From Podarcis pityusensis (lineage: Eukaryota), in assembly GCA_964106645.2 (NCBI GenBank), contig OZ067053.1: DNA of 64,000 bases; one strand, written 5' to 3'. Shown one piece after another: positions 42,001-48,000 of this stretch (the first letter of the stretch is position 1; every line of letters starts with the position of its first letter). Made by a program: the position numbers.

Positions 42001-45000
42001 AACCCTAAATCGGAAAAACCAGCAATCTGCAAAAAATCTGATTGCTGTTAGGTGCCATTCAGAAGTAAATCTGATTGCCAGACCTTCCAAGTGTCCCTAT
42101 TTTCCAGGGTCAGTCCAGAATCTACAAAAGCCGTCCTGGTTTCTGATTTGATCCCAGAAAGTCCCACTTTTCCTTAGATCGTCCCAATTTCAATCTGAGA
42201 AATGTTGGCGGGTATGGAGTTATTGAACCCAGAAGCCATTTGAAGACAGCCCTGTAGAGCCATGTTTTTAATGTTTAATGTTTTATTATGCTTTTATATG
42301 TCTTGGATGCCACCCAGAGTGGCACCCCAGTCAGATGGGCAGGGTATAAAGAGTTAAATTATAGGATAGGAGTTCCCGATTTTCATTGGAGAAATGTTGG
42401 TATGTACGTTGACAGGCATCTGCCCGAGAGTCATATTTCCCCACCTGGTAACTTTCCATGGGTCCCATGTCACAGGTGGGTGGGGCAGAGGCAAAGGTGC
42501 CATGAACGGATATTTTACCTCTCTGTTGTAGTCTAGTCCCCCCAACACTCACTATCCCCCATCCATGAAATGAGAGGCATCAGCGGAATGCTAGGGCACA
42601 TCCTTGCCAGGCAGAAACCCTTGGGGTGCAAACAGAGCCAGTGGAAGGTGTGGCTAGAGGAGAGTGGGTGTGGCCTAGAGCAGTGGCAGAGTGTGTGTGG
42701 GGGGGAATGGGGTGCTTGCCCCAGACACAAAATTGTAAGGGGCACAAAAAATTGTACACTTGGTGCTACCTCAATACAACTGCACACTTCCGTAATGTGC
42801 TCCCTTGAAAAAAGGTTCTCCATGTGAAGTTGACCTCTCCAAACAATGGAGCGACTCTTATTTTCTTGTCTCTTTGACTGCAATGTCCTGGGTGATGCAG
42901 AGGCTGCTAGGCATTTGAATGTACATGCGTACTTTATCCGTTTCCCTCCCAGCCCCCCTGCATTTGGCCCCGGGCGCTGCAACCCACGCTACACCACTGG
43001 CCTAGAGGGCCAGACAGAGACACATTGCTCTTTCAGCTTGAGGTTCCTCACCTTGTTGCAGATTGATGAGCTGCTTCCACAAGTGACTAATGCTGACAGG
43101 TGCTGTCGATGGCTTCTGGCTAATTGCCCAGGAAATCAGAGAGGCAGAGAAAAAGCCAGCTTTCCAGTGACGTCCTTTGTGATGTAAAGATTAGACACTC
43201 TCCCTGCTTCTCGTCTTCCATTGTTTTTCATAGTTGTGGCACCTCAGGAGCTCTAGGTCCACTCTCCCCTCAACTGGGCAGAGAGTCAGGGGAGAGGGAG
43301 AGGGGAGGGGGAAAAATCTCTATAGGCTACTCGATCTTCTGCACCCTGACCCTCAAGTCTGCCTTGATACTGTACCGAGTACCCAGATGGGATCAGCTGG
43401 GTGAGACCAAATCCACTCTGCTCTCAGAGGTGCTTCAACTGGTTTGGCCTAATTGGGCACCGTGCCATAGGAGGTGCCACACCAATGCTGTAGAACGAAG
43501 GATGAGAGGTGGGGGCATGCGCCAAATTTTAGCATCGCACAAGGCGCTGCTGGAATCTGAGAGCCCAAAGTACGCCACTTCTGTTGTCCCAATCAGGTCT
43601 CAGTGATACCGTTCTTGTCACTGTTGCAGGCTGCGTGTCTTTTCATCACAATCTCTGCTCCTCACATGTCAGAAAGTGGCAGCAGAAACCTCAAGGGAGG
43701 GGGGACTTGAACCACCTCTAACCAGTTTCAAGCCAGTCACACATCCTCTTATGTTTCTCCCCTTATAAGGTTCTAGTAAAACAATTACATAGCTCTGTCA
43801 GTACCAAATTACAGGCCACAAAACCTGTGAACCTTAGTGGCACACCCAGCACAATTAGGCTTCCAAAATGCAGCCTCCCCCATTATAGAAGAGCTTCTTC
43901 ATTTTCATGATCATGCACTAATAATTGTTTTTTTAATTAGTGCTCTAGTACTATATATTATTAGCTTAATACTATCAACAAAACTTACACATACCAATTC
44001 AATAGATGCCCAAGAAGTTGAAATAATTTGAACCATCCTTCCTGCAATTATTCTCATCTTAATTGCTCTTCCATCCCTCCAAATTCTTTATTTAATAGAC
44101 AAAATTAATAATCCCCATCTAACTATTAAAGCTATTGGCCACCAATGATATTGAAGCTATGAATATACTGACTACGAAAGCCTGCTATTCGACTCTTATA
44201 TAATCCCAACATGTGATCTAAGTCCTGGAAGTTTTCGCCTATTAGAAGTAGACCACCGAGTTGTAATTCCGATAGAATCCCCAATTCGAATCTTAATCTC
44301 AGCAGAAGACGTTCTACACTCATGAGCTGTCCCAGCACTTGGCATTAAAACAGACGCAGTCCCAGGTCGATTAAACCAAACCACTTTAATTACCTCCCAC
44401 CCTGGTCTATTTTACGGCCAATGCTCAGAGATTTGTGGATCAAATCACAGCTTCATACCCATTGTTGTAGAGTCAACACCATTAAAACACTTCGAAGCAT
44501 GATCTAAAACAATAGTTTCTTCATCACTAAGAAGCTAACTTACAGCACTAGCCTTTTAAGCTAGAGAGGGAAACAATTTCCCTTAGTGACATGCCTCAAC
44601 TTAACCCCGCCCCTTGATTCATAATATTTGTATTAGTATGAACAACCCTCATTATATTTTTTACAAAAATTATTAATACTAATTCCCACCTTTCAACCCA
44701 ACAATATAAAAAACAATCCAACAACCACTACTGAACCTGACCATGACCTAAGTTTTTTTGATCAGTTTGCAATTCCCAATATGCTAGGAGTCCCCCTTAT
44801 TATCCCAGCTTTATTCTTTCCATTAATTATTTGATTTTCAACCGACTGCCTTATCCAAAACTGCTACTCAATCATTCAGTCTTCACTGCCTGGTTTCAAC
44901 AGAGATCAGGGCAGGCCCCTCGCTTTGTGCAGTATGAGGGTGGCAGCAGGGGAGAAGGGATCCCAGATCGATTTACTGCTTCTCGCTCTGGGACCATGGG

Positions 45001-48000
45001 CTATTTAACCATCACCAACGTCCAGGCTGGAGATGAGGCCGTTTATTACTGTTGCAGATATTATAGCAGTGCTAGTGCGTTCCACAGTGATGCAAACTGA
45101 TGGGGAACTGAGACAAAAACCTTTCCTCTTCCACCAAAGAGCAGTGAGATGTGAATGCTTAAGAAGAACTTCCTATGCTTTGTGCTTGCAGCTGTTTTCA
45201 AGTCATGGGCAGATTTGCTTTAACTGGCCATGACTGACCATACAGACAACTTAATCCACACAGATGCTGCCACTGCAGGGAACAAACAGAGAGTGAACAG
45301 ACCCAAAGCAAGTTTTTGTTCGATCAGGCCAGACGCTCCAAGTGTCCCTATTTTGCAGTGTCAGTACTGAATCTAGAAAAGCCGTCCTGGTTTCTGAATT
45401 GATCCTGAAAGTCCCACTTTTCCTTAGATCGTTCCAATTTCCATATGAAAAATGTTGGAAGGTATGGAGTTATTGAACCCACTAGCCATTTGAAGACAGC
45501 CCTGTATAGCCAAGTTTTTAATGCTTAATGTTTTATTATGCTTTTGTATATGTTGGATGCCACCCAGAGGGGCACCCCAGTCAGATATGCAGCATATAAA
45601 GAGTTAAATTATTATTATGGGATAGGAGGTCCCGATTTTCATGATCAAGGTGTCTCCCCTGCCAGGTAAGTGGTTACGGAAGAATTTAAGATAGAAAAAG
45701 GGACACGACAGGGGTGCCCAATTTCCGCATTGCTTTTTATATCGGTCCTGGAGGTTCTGCTAAACATGATTAGAAAGGACCGGTTGGTTAAAGGTATACA
45801 GGTCGGAGCTAAACAGTACAAACTGAGAGCATTTGCAGATGACTTAGTATTGACGTTACAGGAGCCAGAATCTAGCACTAAAAGAGTTTTAGAATTAATT
45901 CAAGAATTTGGTCAGGTGGCAGGCTTTAAATTGAACAAGCTAAAAACTAAGGTTTTAGAGAAAAATTTAACACCGATTGAAAGAGAGAGGTTTCAGAATG
46001 AGACAGGATTGACTGTGGTAAAGAAAGTGAAATACCTGGGGATTAATATGACAGCCAAAAATGGGAACTTATTTAAAGATAACTATGAAAAATGTTGGAC
46101 TGAAGTGAAAAAAGATTTAGAAATCTGGTCAAATTTGAAACTCTCGCTGCTGGGCCGTATTGCTGTGATAAAGATGAATGTATTGCCTAGAATGTTGTTT
46201 TTGTTTCAGACATTACAAATTGTAGATAAGATGGACTGTTTCAAGAAGTGGCAGAGAGATATTTCTAGATTTGTCTGGCAGGGCAAGAAGCCCAGAATAA
46301 AATTTAAGATATTAACTGATGCCAAGGAAAGAGGTGGATTTGCCCTGCCAGACCTTAAACTTTATTATGAATCAGCAGCTTTTTGCTGGCTGAAAGAATG
46401 GCTACTTCTTGAAAACACAGACATTTTGGATTTAGAAGGTTTTAACAATGTATTTGGATGGCATGCATACTTATGGTATGATAAGGTCAAAGCACACAAA
46501 GCATTTAAAAACCATATTGTCAGGAAAGCATTGTTTAATGTTTGGATAAGATATAAAGATTTATTGGAAAATAAAACCCCAAGGTGGCTGTCACCAATGG
46601 AAGCAAAAGCTCTGAAAAGGCTCAATATGGAGGCCAAATGGCCGACATATTGGGAAATTTTGGAACAAGAAGGAGATAAATTGAGATTGCAGAGTTTCGA
46701 AAAACTAAAAAACAAGGTGAGAGATTGGCTTCATTATTATCAGATAATGGAGGCATATAATTTGGATAAGAAAATAGGCTTCCAGGTGGAAAAGTCAAAA
46801 TTAGAGACAGAACTGCTAGAACCCAAAACTAAGAATCTGTCAAGAATGTATAACTTGCTGTTGAAATGGAATACTCAGGATGAAACGGTGAAATCTGCTA
46901 TGATTAAATGGGCACAAGATGTTGGACATAATATTATGTTTGCTGACTGGGAACAGGTATGATGTTTACGGCATGTAACGCCTTAAGAGAGAATATTATG
47001 AAAATGATATACAGGTGGTACATGACCCCAGTCAAGCTTGCAAAAATCTATCATTTGCCTGATAACAAATGTTGGAAATGTAAAGAGACTGAGGGTACAT
47101 TCTTTCACCTTTGGTGGACATGCCCAAAGATTAAGGCTTTCTGGGAATTGATATATAATGAACTGAAAAAGGTATTTAAATATACCTTTCTGAAGAAACC
47201 AGAGGCCTTTCTTCTGGGCATTGTCGGCCAATTGGTGCCAAAGAAGGATAGAACCTTTTTTATGTATGCTATAACAGCAGCAAGAATACTCATCGCAAAG
47301 TATTGGAAGACACAAGATCTACCCACTCTGGAAGAATGGCAGATGAAGGTGATTGACTACATGGAACTGGCGGAAATGACTGGCAGAATCCGAGACCAGA
47401 GAGAAGAGTCGGTGAAAGAAGACTGGAAGAAATTTAAAGACTATTTACAGAAATATTGTAAAATTAAGGAATTTTAGAAGGATGTTGGATAGAAACTAAG
47501 AGGTTTTTAGCTGTAATACTTTAAGAGATATGAAAAAAGGTTTGCAACTGGGTAATTTTAATGGTAAGGATTTGCTGAACTAACAAATTGAACTGGAATA
47601 CAAAAAAGGGAGGTATGAGGAGGTCCGGGGAAATAAGTATAGGGAAGATAGGTTATGGAAAATTAATGTCTTTTTAACTGTTTATTTGGTATGTTTCTTT
47701 TTATTTTCTTTTTTTCTTTTTTTGGTCATATTTTTTTTTAAAAAAACTTTATTCTTTTTCTTTTTGTATTCTGTATTTTTTGTATTTTTTGAAACTTTAA
47801 TAAATATTATTATTTTTTTAAAAAGGAGGTCCCGATTTTCATTGGAGAAATGTTGGAGGGTACATTGACAAGCATCTGCCTGAGGGTCACATTCCCCACC
47901 TGGTAACTTTCCATGGGACCCACATTACTGGTGGGTGGGGCCAGAGGCAAAGGTGCAATGAATTGATATTTCACCTCTCTACGTAGGCTAGTTTTCCCCA

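What the first reader, a model, noticed from the sequence alone, without database searches (positions are those of the whole stretch)
43686..45121. Mitochondrial DNA replaces the 5' half of an Ig V gene that keeps a perfect RSS
Seen: host sequence matches paralogous units up to GGCAGCAGA (43686), then 1.2 kb of mtDNA runs directly into the FR2 Trp codon (44891). By comparison with the V8 and V15 units, roughly 1 kb (promoter, leader, intron, FR1, CDR1) is missing, and there is no TSD. Established: NUMTs are captured at double-strand breaks by end joining, often with deletion. Inference: a germline break at a V CDR1/FR2 boundary was patched with mtDNA. The consensus RSS could still join to J and act as a non-productive decoy.
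Basis: partly seen in the sequence, partly recalled or inferred. Interest (0 to 1): 0.72.

Follow-up and report, generated by a model that had tools for sequence, protein, structure and literature searches.

The report
Mitochondrial DNA patch in lizard antibody gene
A 1.2-kb piece of mitochondrial DNA sits in a wall lizard's antibody light-chain gene array where the front half of one variable gene should be; it is a clean but ordinary example of mitochondrial DNA captured in the nuclear genome, and it leaves a dead gene stub that still carries its recombination signal.

Summary
Window 43690-44888 (1199 nt) is one colinear copy of mitochondrial DNA: tRNA-Ser(UCN), the tRNA-Asp interval, complete COX2, tRNA-Lys, ATP8 and the first 49 codons of ATP6. 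It lies inside an array of 20 lambda-type V segments with 23-spacer RSSs. Paralogous host sequence stops at 43686-43689 and resumes at 44889-44891, at the FR2 Trp codon of "V16". In six sister units the two points are 0.87-1.14 kb apart, a stretch that in V15 holds the octamer, leader, intron, FR1 and CDR1. There is no TSD. The RSS (45083-45121) is consensus.

The host is a lacertid lizard, not human. The insert's COX2 differs from Podarcis lilfordi mitochondrial COX2 at 3 of 228 residues.

The insert is a decayed nuclear copy rather than an assembly chimera:
- One base is missing in the ATP8/ATP6 overlap, which breaks both genes.
- Lys replaces an invariant Glu in COX2.
- Two Arg-to-Cys changes in ATP6 must be CpG-to-TpG.

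Capture at a germline break with about 1 kb lost is the best reading. One step versus two cannot be told. The "decoy" idea is plausible but untested and ordinary, because V pseudogenes with good RSSs are known to recombine. This is a new member of a known kind, of modest interest.

The parts
42068..43686 (+). Host inter-V spacer upstream of V16, homologous to the spacers upstream of other V units. 43687-43689 ('AAC' against paralog 'GAC') is of ambiguous origin.
   Evidence: blastn (88.5% to 21010-22389 and 31210-32589; 79% to 47824-49147). Junction view.
43690..44888 (+). NUMT: 1199 nt of mtDNA in one colinear piece, in vertebrate gene order, with the COX2 sense strand on the + strand. GC is 0.375.
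43692..43763 (-). mt tRNA-Ser(UCN) copy, anticodon TGA.
   Evidence: Rfam RF00005, 33.4 bits. aragorn -mt calls mtRNA-Ser(tga).
43764..43836 (+). The interval where tRNA-Asp lies in vertebrate mtDNA. No tool called a tRNA here, so its state is undetermined.
   Evidence: No call by aragorn or by Rfam at E<=1. The gene order is recalled knowledge.
43837..44524 (+). COX2 copy: GTG start, 229 codons open under table 2, 5 in-frame TGA, and a single T at 44524 where I expect the incomplete stop (convention recalled).
   Evidence: It differs at 3 of 228 aa from P. lilfordi mt COX2 (P0130). K89 replaces a Glu found in all 32 compared sequences.
44525..44589 (+). mt tRNA-Lys copy, anticodon TTT.
   Evidence: Rfam, 35.5 bits. 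aragorn.
44591..44788 (+). ATP8 copy: 53 normal codons, then the expected stop is lost and the frame reads on for 12 more codons to TAG.
44743..44888 (+). ATP6 copy, codons 1-49. It reads ATG ACC TAA because one C of the ACC-CTA run is missing (44747-44748). The body frame runs from 44748.
   Evidence: The rest of ATP6 is absent from the window.
44889..44890 (+). Two bases, 'CC', of ambiguous origin at the right junction. The second matches the host paralogs ('..GC|TGG').
44891..45082 (+). V16 remnant: FR2, CDR2, FR3 and the germline CDR3 part, 64 codons with no stop. It runs from WFQQ to YYC and CRYYSSASAF.
   Evidence: With the RSS it is 96.5% identical to V15 over 231 nt.
45083..45121 (+). 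RSS: heptamer CACAGTG, 23-nt spacer, nonamer ACAAAAACC. It is letter for letter the same as the RSSs of V7, V11 and V15.

Best explanation
This is a genuine germline NUMT in the immunoglobulin lambda V array of a lacertid lizard of the genus Podarcis or close to it.

Proposed mechanism: a linear 1.2-kb fragment of mtDNA, running from the tRNA-Ser(UCN) end to ATP6 codon 49, was ligated by non-homologous end joining between two chromosomal ends. One end lay in the spacer upstream of a V segment. The other lay 1-2 nt before the FR2 Trp codon. The 0.9-1.1 kb between them was lost; by the V15 unit it held the octamer promoter, leader exon, intron, FR1 and CDR1.

Result: a 5'-truncated V pseudogene with no promoter, no leader and no first cysteine. 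It still has an open FR2-FR3 and a consensus 23-spacer RSS, so RAG could in principle still join it to a J segment. Any such join would be non-productive.

Since insertion, the mitochondrial piece has decayed as unconstrained nuclear DNA.

Shown: the anatomy, the mitochondrial origin, the lizard host, the loss of host sequence, the absence of a TSD, and the pseudogene state of the insert.
Inferred: end joining, a single event, a germline age of a few million years at most, and any recombination activity of the RSS.
For: - Anatomy and junctions.
- Mitochondrial identity.
- Host: the best COX2 hits are all Lacertidae at 89-93%. After opening the cluster of P0007, the nearest is Podarcis lilfordi, with 3 real differences in 228 aa; 4 P. 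siculus sequences differ at 10-11 positions and the other 27 compared sequences at 13-38.
- Tree: an ML tree of 33 COX2 proteins puts the insert as sister to P. lilfordi with support 97/89. Its terminal branch is 0.017 against 0.0025 for P. lilfordi.
- ATP6: the fragment is nearest to P. siculus and P. lilfordi at 89%.
- Nuclear side: the nearest named proteins to the V remnant are Podarcis muralis Ig-like proteins at 92% and 91%, and a Zootoca lambda light chain at 88%.
- Pseudogene marks. The ATP8/ATP6 overlap reads ATGACC-TAAG where Podarcis ATP6 begins MTLSFF, so one C is missing; ATP6 stops at codon 3 and ATP8 loses its stop. COX2 has K89 where all 32 compared sequences have E, and its codon is preceded by GAC, which is compatible with CpG to CpA. 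ATP6 reads DCLIQNC where 8 of 8 relatives read (N/S)RLIQNR. Arg is only CGN in the vertebrate mitochondrial code, so both TGC codons arose by CpG to TpG, the typical decay of methylated nuclear DNA.
- Junctions: at most 3 and 2 ambiguous bases, and no TSD, as expected for end joining (PMC2567098, passages read).
- No N run lies within 11 kb of the insert.
Against: - No reads, no second assembly and no genome of a related lizard could be examined. The junctions are therefore supported only by the internal evidence that the insert is not a working mitogenome.
- The host species' own mitogenome may not be among the sequences compared. Part of the difference from P. lilfordi could then be species divergence rather than decay.
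- The missing base lies in a short C run and could on its own be a sequencing error.
- Only protein-level comparison with mitochondrial relatives was possible, because no lizard mtDNA nucleotides were available.
- A deletion of about 1 kb is atypical. In 90 primate NUMT insertions only 41 had any deletion, and most of those were 1-2 nt (PMC2567098). The table of sizes is in a supplement that I could not open.
Confidence: 0.8

Rival explanations
1. Two separate events. Either a NUMT inserted without loss (in the spacer, or inside the V exon) and a later deletion removed one end of it together with about 1 kb of host DNA, or a pre-existing deletion scar was later hit by the NUMT.
For: The present structure is equally compatible with this. 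The mtDNA piece ends at an arbitrary point inside ATP6. NUMT capture in primates usually causes no deletion or only a tiny one (PMC2567098). The array is clearly dynamic, with a 4.5-kb duplicate at 99.6% identity and a LINE insertion 0.5 kb downstream.
Against: It needs two rare events whose end points coincide. Nothing in the window shows an intermediate, and no other unit carries any mtDNA (the Podarcis COX2 and ATP6 queries hit only this site).
Confidence: 0.13
2. Assembly artefact: a mitochondrial read or contig was wrongly joined into the nuclear scaffold.
For: The COX2 frame is fully open under the mitochondrial code and is 98.7% identical in protein to a known Podarcis mitogenome. No read data could be checked.
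Against: - The insert could not work as mtDNA. ATP6 is frameshifted at codon 3 and the ATP8 stop is lost.
- Lys replaces a Glu that is invariant in 32 of 32 COX2 sequences.
- Two Cys replace Arg residues that are invariant in 8 of 8 ATP6 sequences.
- Both flanks are continuous with paralogous nuclear sequence up to the base, no N run is nearby, and exactly the expected unit-internal stretch is missing.
Confidence: 0.04
3. The breaks were made by the immune system's own machinery acting in the germline (RAG at cryptic RSSs, or AID in CDR1), and the retained RSS is kept by selection as a decoy.
For: The right break lies at the CDR1/FR2 boundary of a V gene. The RSS is still perfect and identical to those of three neighbours.
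Against: - Read directly from the paralog sequences, neither break point abuts a heptamer-like motif. The left is GAC|TGTGCC and the right is GTTCGC|TGG.
- A perfect RSS and an open remnant are what a young event leaves without any selection. The remnant plus RSS is still 96.5% identical to V15.
- 12 of the 20 RSS matches in the window are perfect.
Confidence: 0.03

Closest known systems
NUMTs captured at chromosomal double-strand breaks by non-homologous end joining (primate survey, PMC2567098; review, PMC2820518, seen in a search listing only)
   Same: A colinear piece of mtDNA flanked by nuclear DNA, with no TSD, 0-3 nt of possible microhomology at each junction, and decay as a pseudogene afterwards.
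   Different: Here about 1 kb of host DNA is missing. In the primate set 49 of 90 insertions had no deletion, 12 of the 41 with a deletion lost a single base, and all 90 were in non-coding DNA (passages read). This one removes half of a gene segment.
Immunoglobulin or TCR V pseudogenes that keep a recombinogenic RSS
   Same: A non-functional V segment with a consensus RSS inside an active array. Such segments do rearrange and give non-productive joins: 29 of 92 mouse VH pseudogenes do so (PMC4914699). For TCRB pseudogenes see PMC4657264 (abstract read).
   Different: The defect here is a 5' truncation that also removes the promoter, and it was caused by organelle DNA rather than by point mutations. 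Whether a V segment without a promoter recombines in this lizard was not tested.
Somatic mtDNA inserts in human antibody genes (the mtVDJ class, PMC9457163)
   Same: Mitochondrial DNA is used as filler at a break in an immunoglobulin locus.
   Different: Those inserts are somatic, lie at RAG-made V-D-J junctions of heavy chains in single B cells, and are 29-563 bp long (passages read). This one is germline, 1.2 kb long, in a light-chain V array, and shows no RSS at its break points.

Membership tests
NUMT (nuclear copy of mitochondrial DNA) | Significant, colinear similarity to mtDNA across several adjacent mitochondrial genes | tested here: met
   tRNA-Ser(UCN), COX2, tRNA-Lys, ATP8 and ATP6 lie in mitochondrial order. 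COX2 tblastn gives E=5.6e-153.
NUMT (nuclear copy of mitochondrial DNA) | Flanked on both sides by nuclear sequence | tested here: met
   Both flanks match paralogous Ig V units in the same window right up to the junctions.
NUMT (nuclear copy of mitochondrial DNA) | Differs from the functional mitogenome (pseudogene marks), so it is not contamination or a chimera | tested here: met
   ATP6 is frameshifted and the ATP8 stop is lost. COX2 has K89, and ATP6 has two Arg-to-Cys changes at invariant positions. The comparison was at protein level only, and the host's own mitogenome is unknown.
NUMT (nuclear copy of mitochondrial DNA) | Junctions supported by reads, or present at the orthologous locus in other individuals or species | not testable with these tools
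   No reads and no vertebrate genome collection were on hand.
Functional immunoglobulin lambda V gene segment | Promoter with octamer, leader exon, intron, and FR1-CDR1 with the first conserved Cys | tested here: not met
   All of these are present in V15 (octamer at 40545, ATG at 40644, V exon from about 40807). They are absent upstream of 44891, where the V frame has no ATG and consists of mtDNA.
Functional immunoglobulin lambda V gene segment | FR2 Trp and FR3 YYC, with an open frame up to the heptamer | tested here: met
   WFQQ...DEAVYYC...: 64 codons with no stop. The best named hits are lacertid lambda and Ig-like V proteins at 87-92%.
Functional immunoglobulin lambda V gene segment | RSS with heptamer, 23-nt spacer and nonamer | tested here: met
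   CACAGTG / 23 / ACAAAAACC with 0 mismatches. Activity was not tested.
RAG-generated break (cryptic RSS) | A heptamer-like CACAGTG or CACTGTG abutting the break point in the unbroken paralogs | tested here: not met
   The paralog sequences at the two break points read GAC|TGTGCC and GTTCGC|TGG. This was judged by eye, not by an RSS scoring model.

The most novel reading that the evidence does not exclude
The right-hand break, 1-2 nt before FR2 at the end of CDR1, may record a germline or early-embryo lesion made by the antibody-diversifying machinery itself (AID-type deamination of CDR1 hotspots, or RAG nicking) and patched with mtDNA. The promoter-less V16, tagged by mtDNA and still carrying a consensus RSS, would then still recombine. 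That would give a natural reporter of RSS-only recombination in a reptile light-chain locus.
Probability: 0.04. Interest if true: 0.65.

Novelty: new member of a known kind. Interest (0 to 1): 0.3.

Why it matters
- **A well-resolved example.** It shows organelle DNA used as filler at a chromosomal break that also destroyed half of a gene segment. Both junctions are resolved to within 3 nt, because the tandem paralogs show what was lost.
- **A marker.** The insert may be lineage-specific within Podarcis, which would make it useful for presence/absence typing.
- **A caution for annotation and mitogenome assembly.** The COX2 copy is still fully open under the mitochondrial code.
- **A cheap experiment.** It offers a small natural test of whether a V stub without promoter or leader, but with a perfect RSS, still joins to J.

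None of this changes current understanding of NUMTs or of V(D)J recombination.

Tried and rejected
- ARAGORN in bacterial mode found no tRNA in the window. The mitochondrial mode in a script found tRNA-Ser and tRNA-Lys.
- tRNA-Asp was not called by aragorn or by Rfam at E<=1. I do not count this as decay, because general tRNA models often miss mitochondrial tRNAs (recalled).
- I suspected that the AT-rich, G-skewed stretch at 46-48 kb was a second, inverted mtDNA piece. It is a 5'-truncated LINE with a target-site duplication.
- tblastn with Podarcis ATP6 and COX2 found no other mtDNA piece in the window. Other mitochondrial genes were not available as queries. Rfam found no rRNA.
- A search for an orthologous intact V16 in other lacertids through the protein collection gave no hit closer than the in-window paralog. 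P. muralis reaches 92%, while V15 matches at 60 of 64 residues. It therefore says nothing about presence or absence elsewhere.
- A scan for a J segment or a 12-spacer RSS in the window found none.
- My megablast self-comparison printed no rows, so I took the extent of the duplicate from a fixed-offset comparison instead.
- Literature searches for a germline NUMT in an Ig V gene found no such report. The terms were 'numt' + 'immunoglobulin' + 'variable gene' (9 papers, none relevant by title or abstract) and 'Podarcis' + 'immunoglobulin' + 'light chain' + 'lambda' (0 papers). 'Podarcis' + 'numt' (12 papers) showed none on this locus by title or abstract.
- Dating from nucleotides was not possible, because no lizard mtDNA nucleotides were available.

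
Full report
**What the window is.** The window holds 20 matches to a 23-spacer RSS, all on the + strand, against 0.75 expected by chance; 12 of them are perfect. Upstream of 17 of these sites my script could translate a V exon of the lambda type; V4-V6 gave no frame. For the spliced V models I translated single exons only. I never joined leader and V exon, so no search or look-up was made with a joined model. The units are related to each other at 60-100% identity. 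I take the contig for a lizard, not for human: the mitochondrial and the nuclear evidence both point to Lacertidae. The two N runs (13354-13502 and 56028-56181) lie far from the finding and were left alone.

**The observation.** blastn of 42000-46500 against the whole window shows that similarity to the spacers of other units runs up to 43689 in all 8 matching paralogs. It restarts at 44889-44891 in 19 other units. Between these points there is no paralogous match.

The junction views read as follows:
- Left: '...GGCAGCAGAAAC|CTCAAGGG' in V16 against '...GGCAGCAGAGAC|TGTGCC' in the 6 paralogs that carry it; the other two (p11652, p13963) read '...GGCACCAGAGAC|TTTTGA'. Host sequence is certain to 43686, and 43687-43689 is ambiguous.
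- Right: '...TCACTGCC|TGGTTTCAACAG' against '...GTTCGC|TGGTTTCAACAG'. TGG at 44891 is the FR2 Trp codon, and the two bases before it are ambiguous.

The 40-nt flanks share no k-mer of 6 or more, so there is no target-site duplication.

**The insert is mtDNA in one colinear piece of 1199 nt (43690-44888).**
- tRNA-Ser(UCN) lies on the minus strand at 43692-43763 (Rfam 33.4 bits; aragorn).
- A 73-nt interval follows, where tRNA-Asp is expected from the vertebrate gene order (recalled). No tool called it.
- COX2 lies at 43837-44523. It has a GTG start and 229 codons open under table 2, with 5 TGA and 10 ATA codons read the mitochondrial way.
- tRNA-Lys lies at 44525-44589.
- ATP8 starts at 44591.
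- ATP6 runs from its ATG at 44743 to codon 49 at 44888.
- The rest of ATP6 is nowhere in the window, and the Podarcis COX2 and ATP6 queries hit no second site.

**What was lost.** In six sister units the two break points are 0.87-1.14 kb apart: 1139 bp in V15 (39774-40912), 950 in V8, 869 in V17, 1144 in V19, 1132 in V5 and 1117 in V6 (coordinates). In V15 this stretch holds about 770 bp of spacer, the octamer ATTTGCAT at 40545, the leader exon from the ATG at 40644, the intron, and FR1-CDR1 of the V exon from about 40807. V16 is the only one of the 20 units without these parts.

**What is left of V16.** Sixty-four codons remain open (WFQQRSGQAPRF...DEAVYYCCRYYSSASAF), followed by CACAGTG, 23 nt and ACAAAAACC. 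The 39-nt RSS is identical to those of V7, V11 and V15. The remnant plus RSS is 96.5% identical to V15 and 93.5% to V17 over 231 nt. In the V frame, the sequence upstream of 44891 is mtDNA with no ATG. The first conserved cysteine is gone. The stub therefore cannot encode an Ig domain, and any join to J would be non-productive.

**Whose mtDNA.** The 120 best COX2 hits listed (8000 candidates were scored) are led by Lacertidae at 89-93%. One unnamed cluster representative hid the Podarcis sequences. Opening that cluster and counting differences gave these results:

| Compared COX2 | Differences from the insert |
|---|---|
| Podarcis lilfordi mitochondrial COX2 | 3 real differences in 228 (K89E, S132G, V227I) |
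| 4 P. siculus sequences | 10-11 |
| 2 Lacerta agilis sequences | 13-15 |
| The other 25 (22 lacertids; a skink, Sceloporus and Anolis) | 15-38 |

An ML tree of 33 COX2 proteins places the insert as sister to P. lilfordi with support 97/89. Its terminal branch is 0.017 against 0.0025 for P. lilfordi. I left the unnamed representative P0007 out of the counts and the tree because it is translated with ATA=Ile.

The 49-residue ATP6 fragment found 8 proteins. The best are P. siculus and P. lilfordi at 89%, then P. muralis at 81% and Algyroides at 77%.

On the nuclear side, the V remnant is nearest to Podarcis muralis Ig-like proteins (92% and 91%), a Zootoca vivipara lambda light chain (88%) and a P. 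raffonei protein (87%). No hit is identical.

The host is therefore a Podarcis or a close relative. The species itself was not determined.

**Real nuclear copy or assembly chimera?** The insert could not function as mtDNA.
- Podarcis ATP6 begins MTLSFFDQF (8 of 8 hits have L at position 3). The window reads ATG ACC TAA, with the LSFFDQF body one base out of frame. One C of the ACC-CTA run is therefore missing. ATP6 stops at codon 3, and ATP8 loses its stop and reads on for 12 codons.
- COX2 has Lys at position 89, where all 32 compared sequences, including a skink and two iguanians, have Glu. The codon is AAA after GAC, which is compatible with a CpG-to-CpA change (inference).
- ATP6 reads STDCLIQNCYSI where 8 of 8 relatives read (N/S)RLIQNRYST. 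Arg is encoded only by CGN in the vertebrate mitochondrial code, so both TGC codons must have come from CGY by C-to-T at a CpG. That is the signature of methylated nuclear DNA (established knowledge applied).

The missing base alone could be a sequencing error in a short C run. The substitutions could not. I therefore rate a chimera at about 4%. No reads could be examined.

**Age.** Five or six changes are specific to the insert in 1.2 kb, several of them at fast-mutating CpG sites. Together with the sister position to P. lilfordi after its split from P. siculus, this suggests an event of the order of a few million years at most. This is a rough inference. It rests on protein comparisons only and on a recalled squamate neutral rate of about 1e-9 per site per year. 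If the host's own mitogenome is closer to the insert than P. lilfordi's is, the event is younger.

**Mechanism.** Junctions with at most 3 and 2 ambiguous bases, no TSD and one colinear filler fragment fit capture of mtDNA by non-homologous end joining. This pattern was described for 90 primate NUMTs (PMC2567098; passages read). In that set, 49 insertions had no deletion, 12 of the 41 with a deletion lost a single base, and all were in non-coding DNA. A loss of about 1 kb is therefore atypical. The table with the individual deletion sizes is a supplement that I could not open.

Two readings remain open:
- One event between two distant ends. This is my preference, because it needs no coincidence.
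- An insertion plus a separate deletion that shares one end point (about 13%).

The array is plainly dynamic. A 4491-nt block at 20480-24970 recurs at 30680-35170 with 16 mismatches, and a 5'-truncated LINE with an 18-nt target-site duplication sits 0.5 kb downstream of the V16 RSS.

Neither break point abuts a heptamer-like motif in the unbroken paralogs (by eye). Nothing points to RAG.

**The 'decoy' idea.** A consensus RSS on a dead V is what a young truncation leaves without any selection. V pseudogenes with good RSSs are known to recombine: 29 of 92 mouse VH pseudogenes do, all with recombinogenic RSSs (PMC4914699, passages read). For TCRB pseudogenes see PMC4657264 (abstract read). Whether this promoter-less stub recombines was not testable, and the window holds no J segment.

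Mitochondrial DNA in antibody genes is known as a somatic event at human heavy-chain VDJ junctions (PMC9457163, passages read). That is a different setting.

I found no report of a germline NUMT in an Ig V segment in three searches. These cover open-access full text only.

**What stayed unchecked.**
- Read support for the junctions.
- The host's own mitogenome.
- Presence or absence of the insert in other lizards.
- Nucleotide-level dating.
- Supplementary tables of the papers cited.

**Verdict.** The object is a clean new instance of two well-known things: a NUMT captured at a break, and a V pseudogene that keeps its RSS. Interest is modest.

Noticed in passing
window 45644-47823 (TSD copies at about 45626-45643 and 47824-47841): A 5'-truncated LINE-like retroelement lies on the + strand, 0.5 kb downstream of the V16 RSS. 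It has a reverse-transcriptase-like open frame and a 3' tail rich in T and A. It is flanked by an 18-nt direct repeat, GGAGGTCCCGATTTTCAT. It explains the low-GC, G-skewed composition at 46-48 kb. Similar composition at 17-18 kb, 7-8 kb and 3-4 kb was not examined.
   Followed up: partly
window 20480-24970 and 30680-35170: A 4491-nt block is repeated at an offset of 10,200 nt with only 16 mismatches (99.6%). V8, V9 and V12 have identical V exons, and so do V10 and V13. This is either a very recent tandem duplication in the array or a collapsed or duplicated haplotype in the assembly.
   Followed up: partly
window 10530-10532 (V4 unit): V4 has TCG where all the other aligned units have the FR2 Trp codon TGG. 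V4, V5 and V6 also gave no clean YYC-containing frame in my script. They may be pseudogenes, although they keep RSSs with 0-1 mismatches.
   Followed up: no
window 43341-43689 compared with 44891-45121: The V16 unit is a mosaic. Its coding remnant is closest to V15 (96.5%). Its upstream spacer is only 82% identical to the V15 spacer and is closer to the spacers upstream of V8 and V12 (88.5%) and of V19 (85%). This suggests gene conversion or unequal crossing-over among the units.
   Followed up: no
window 13354-13502 and 56028-56181: There are two N runs (149 and 154 nt), each next to short-period repeats in the spacers downstream of V5 and V19.
   Followed up: no
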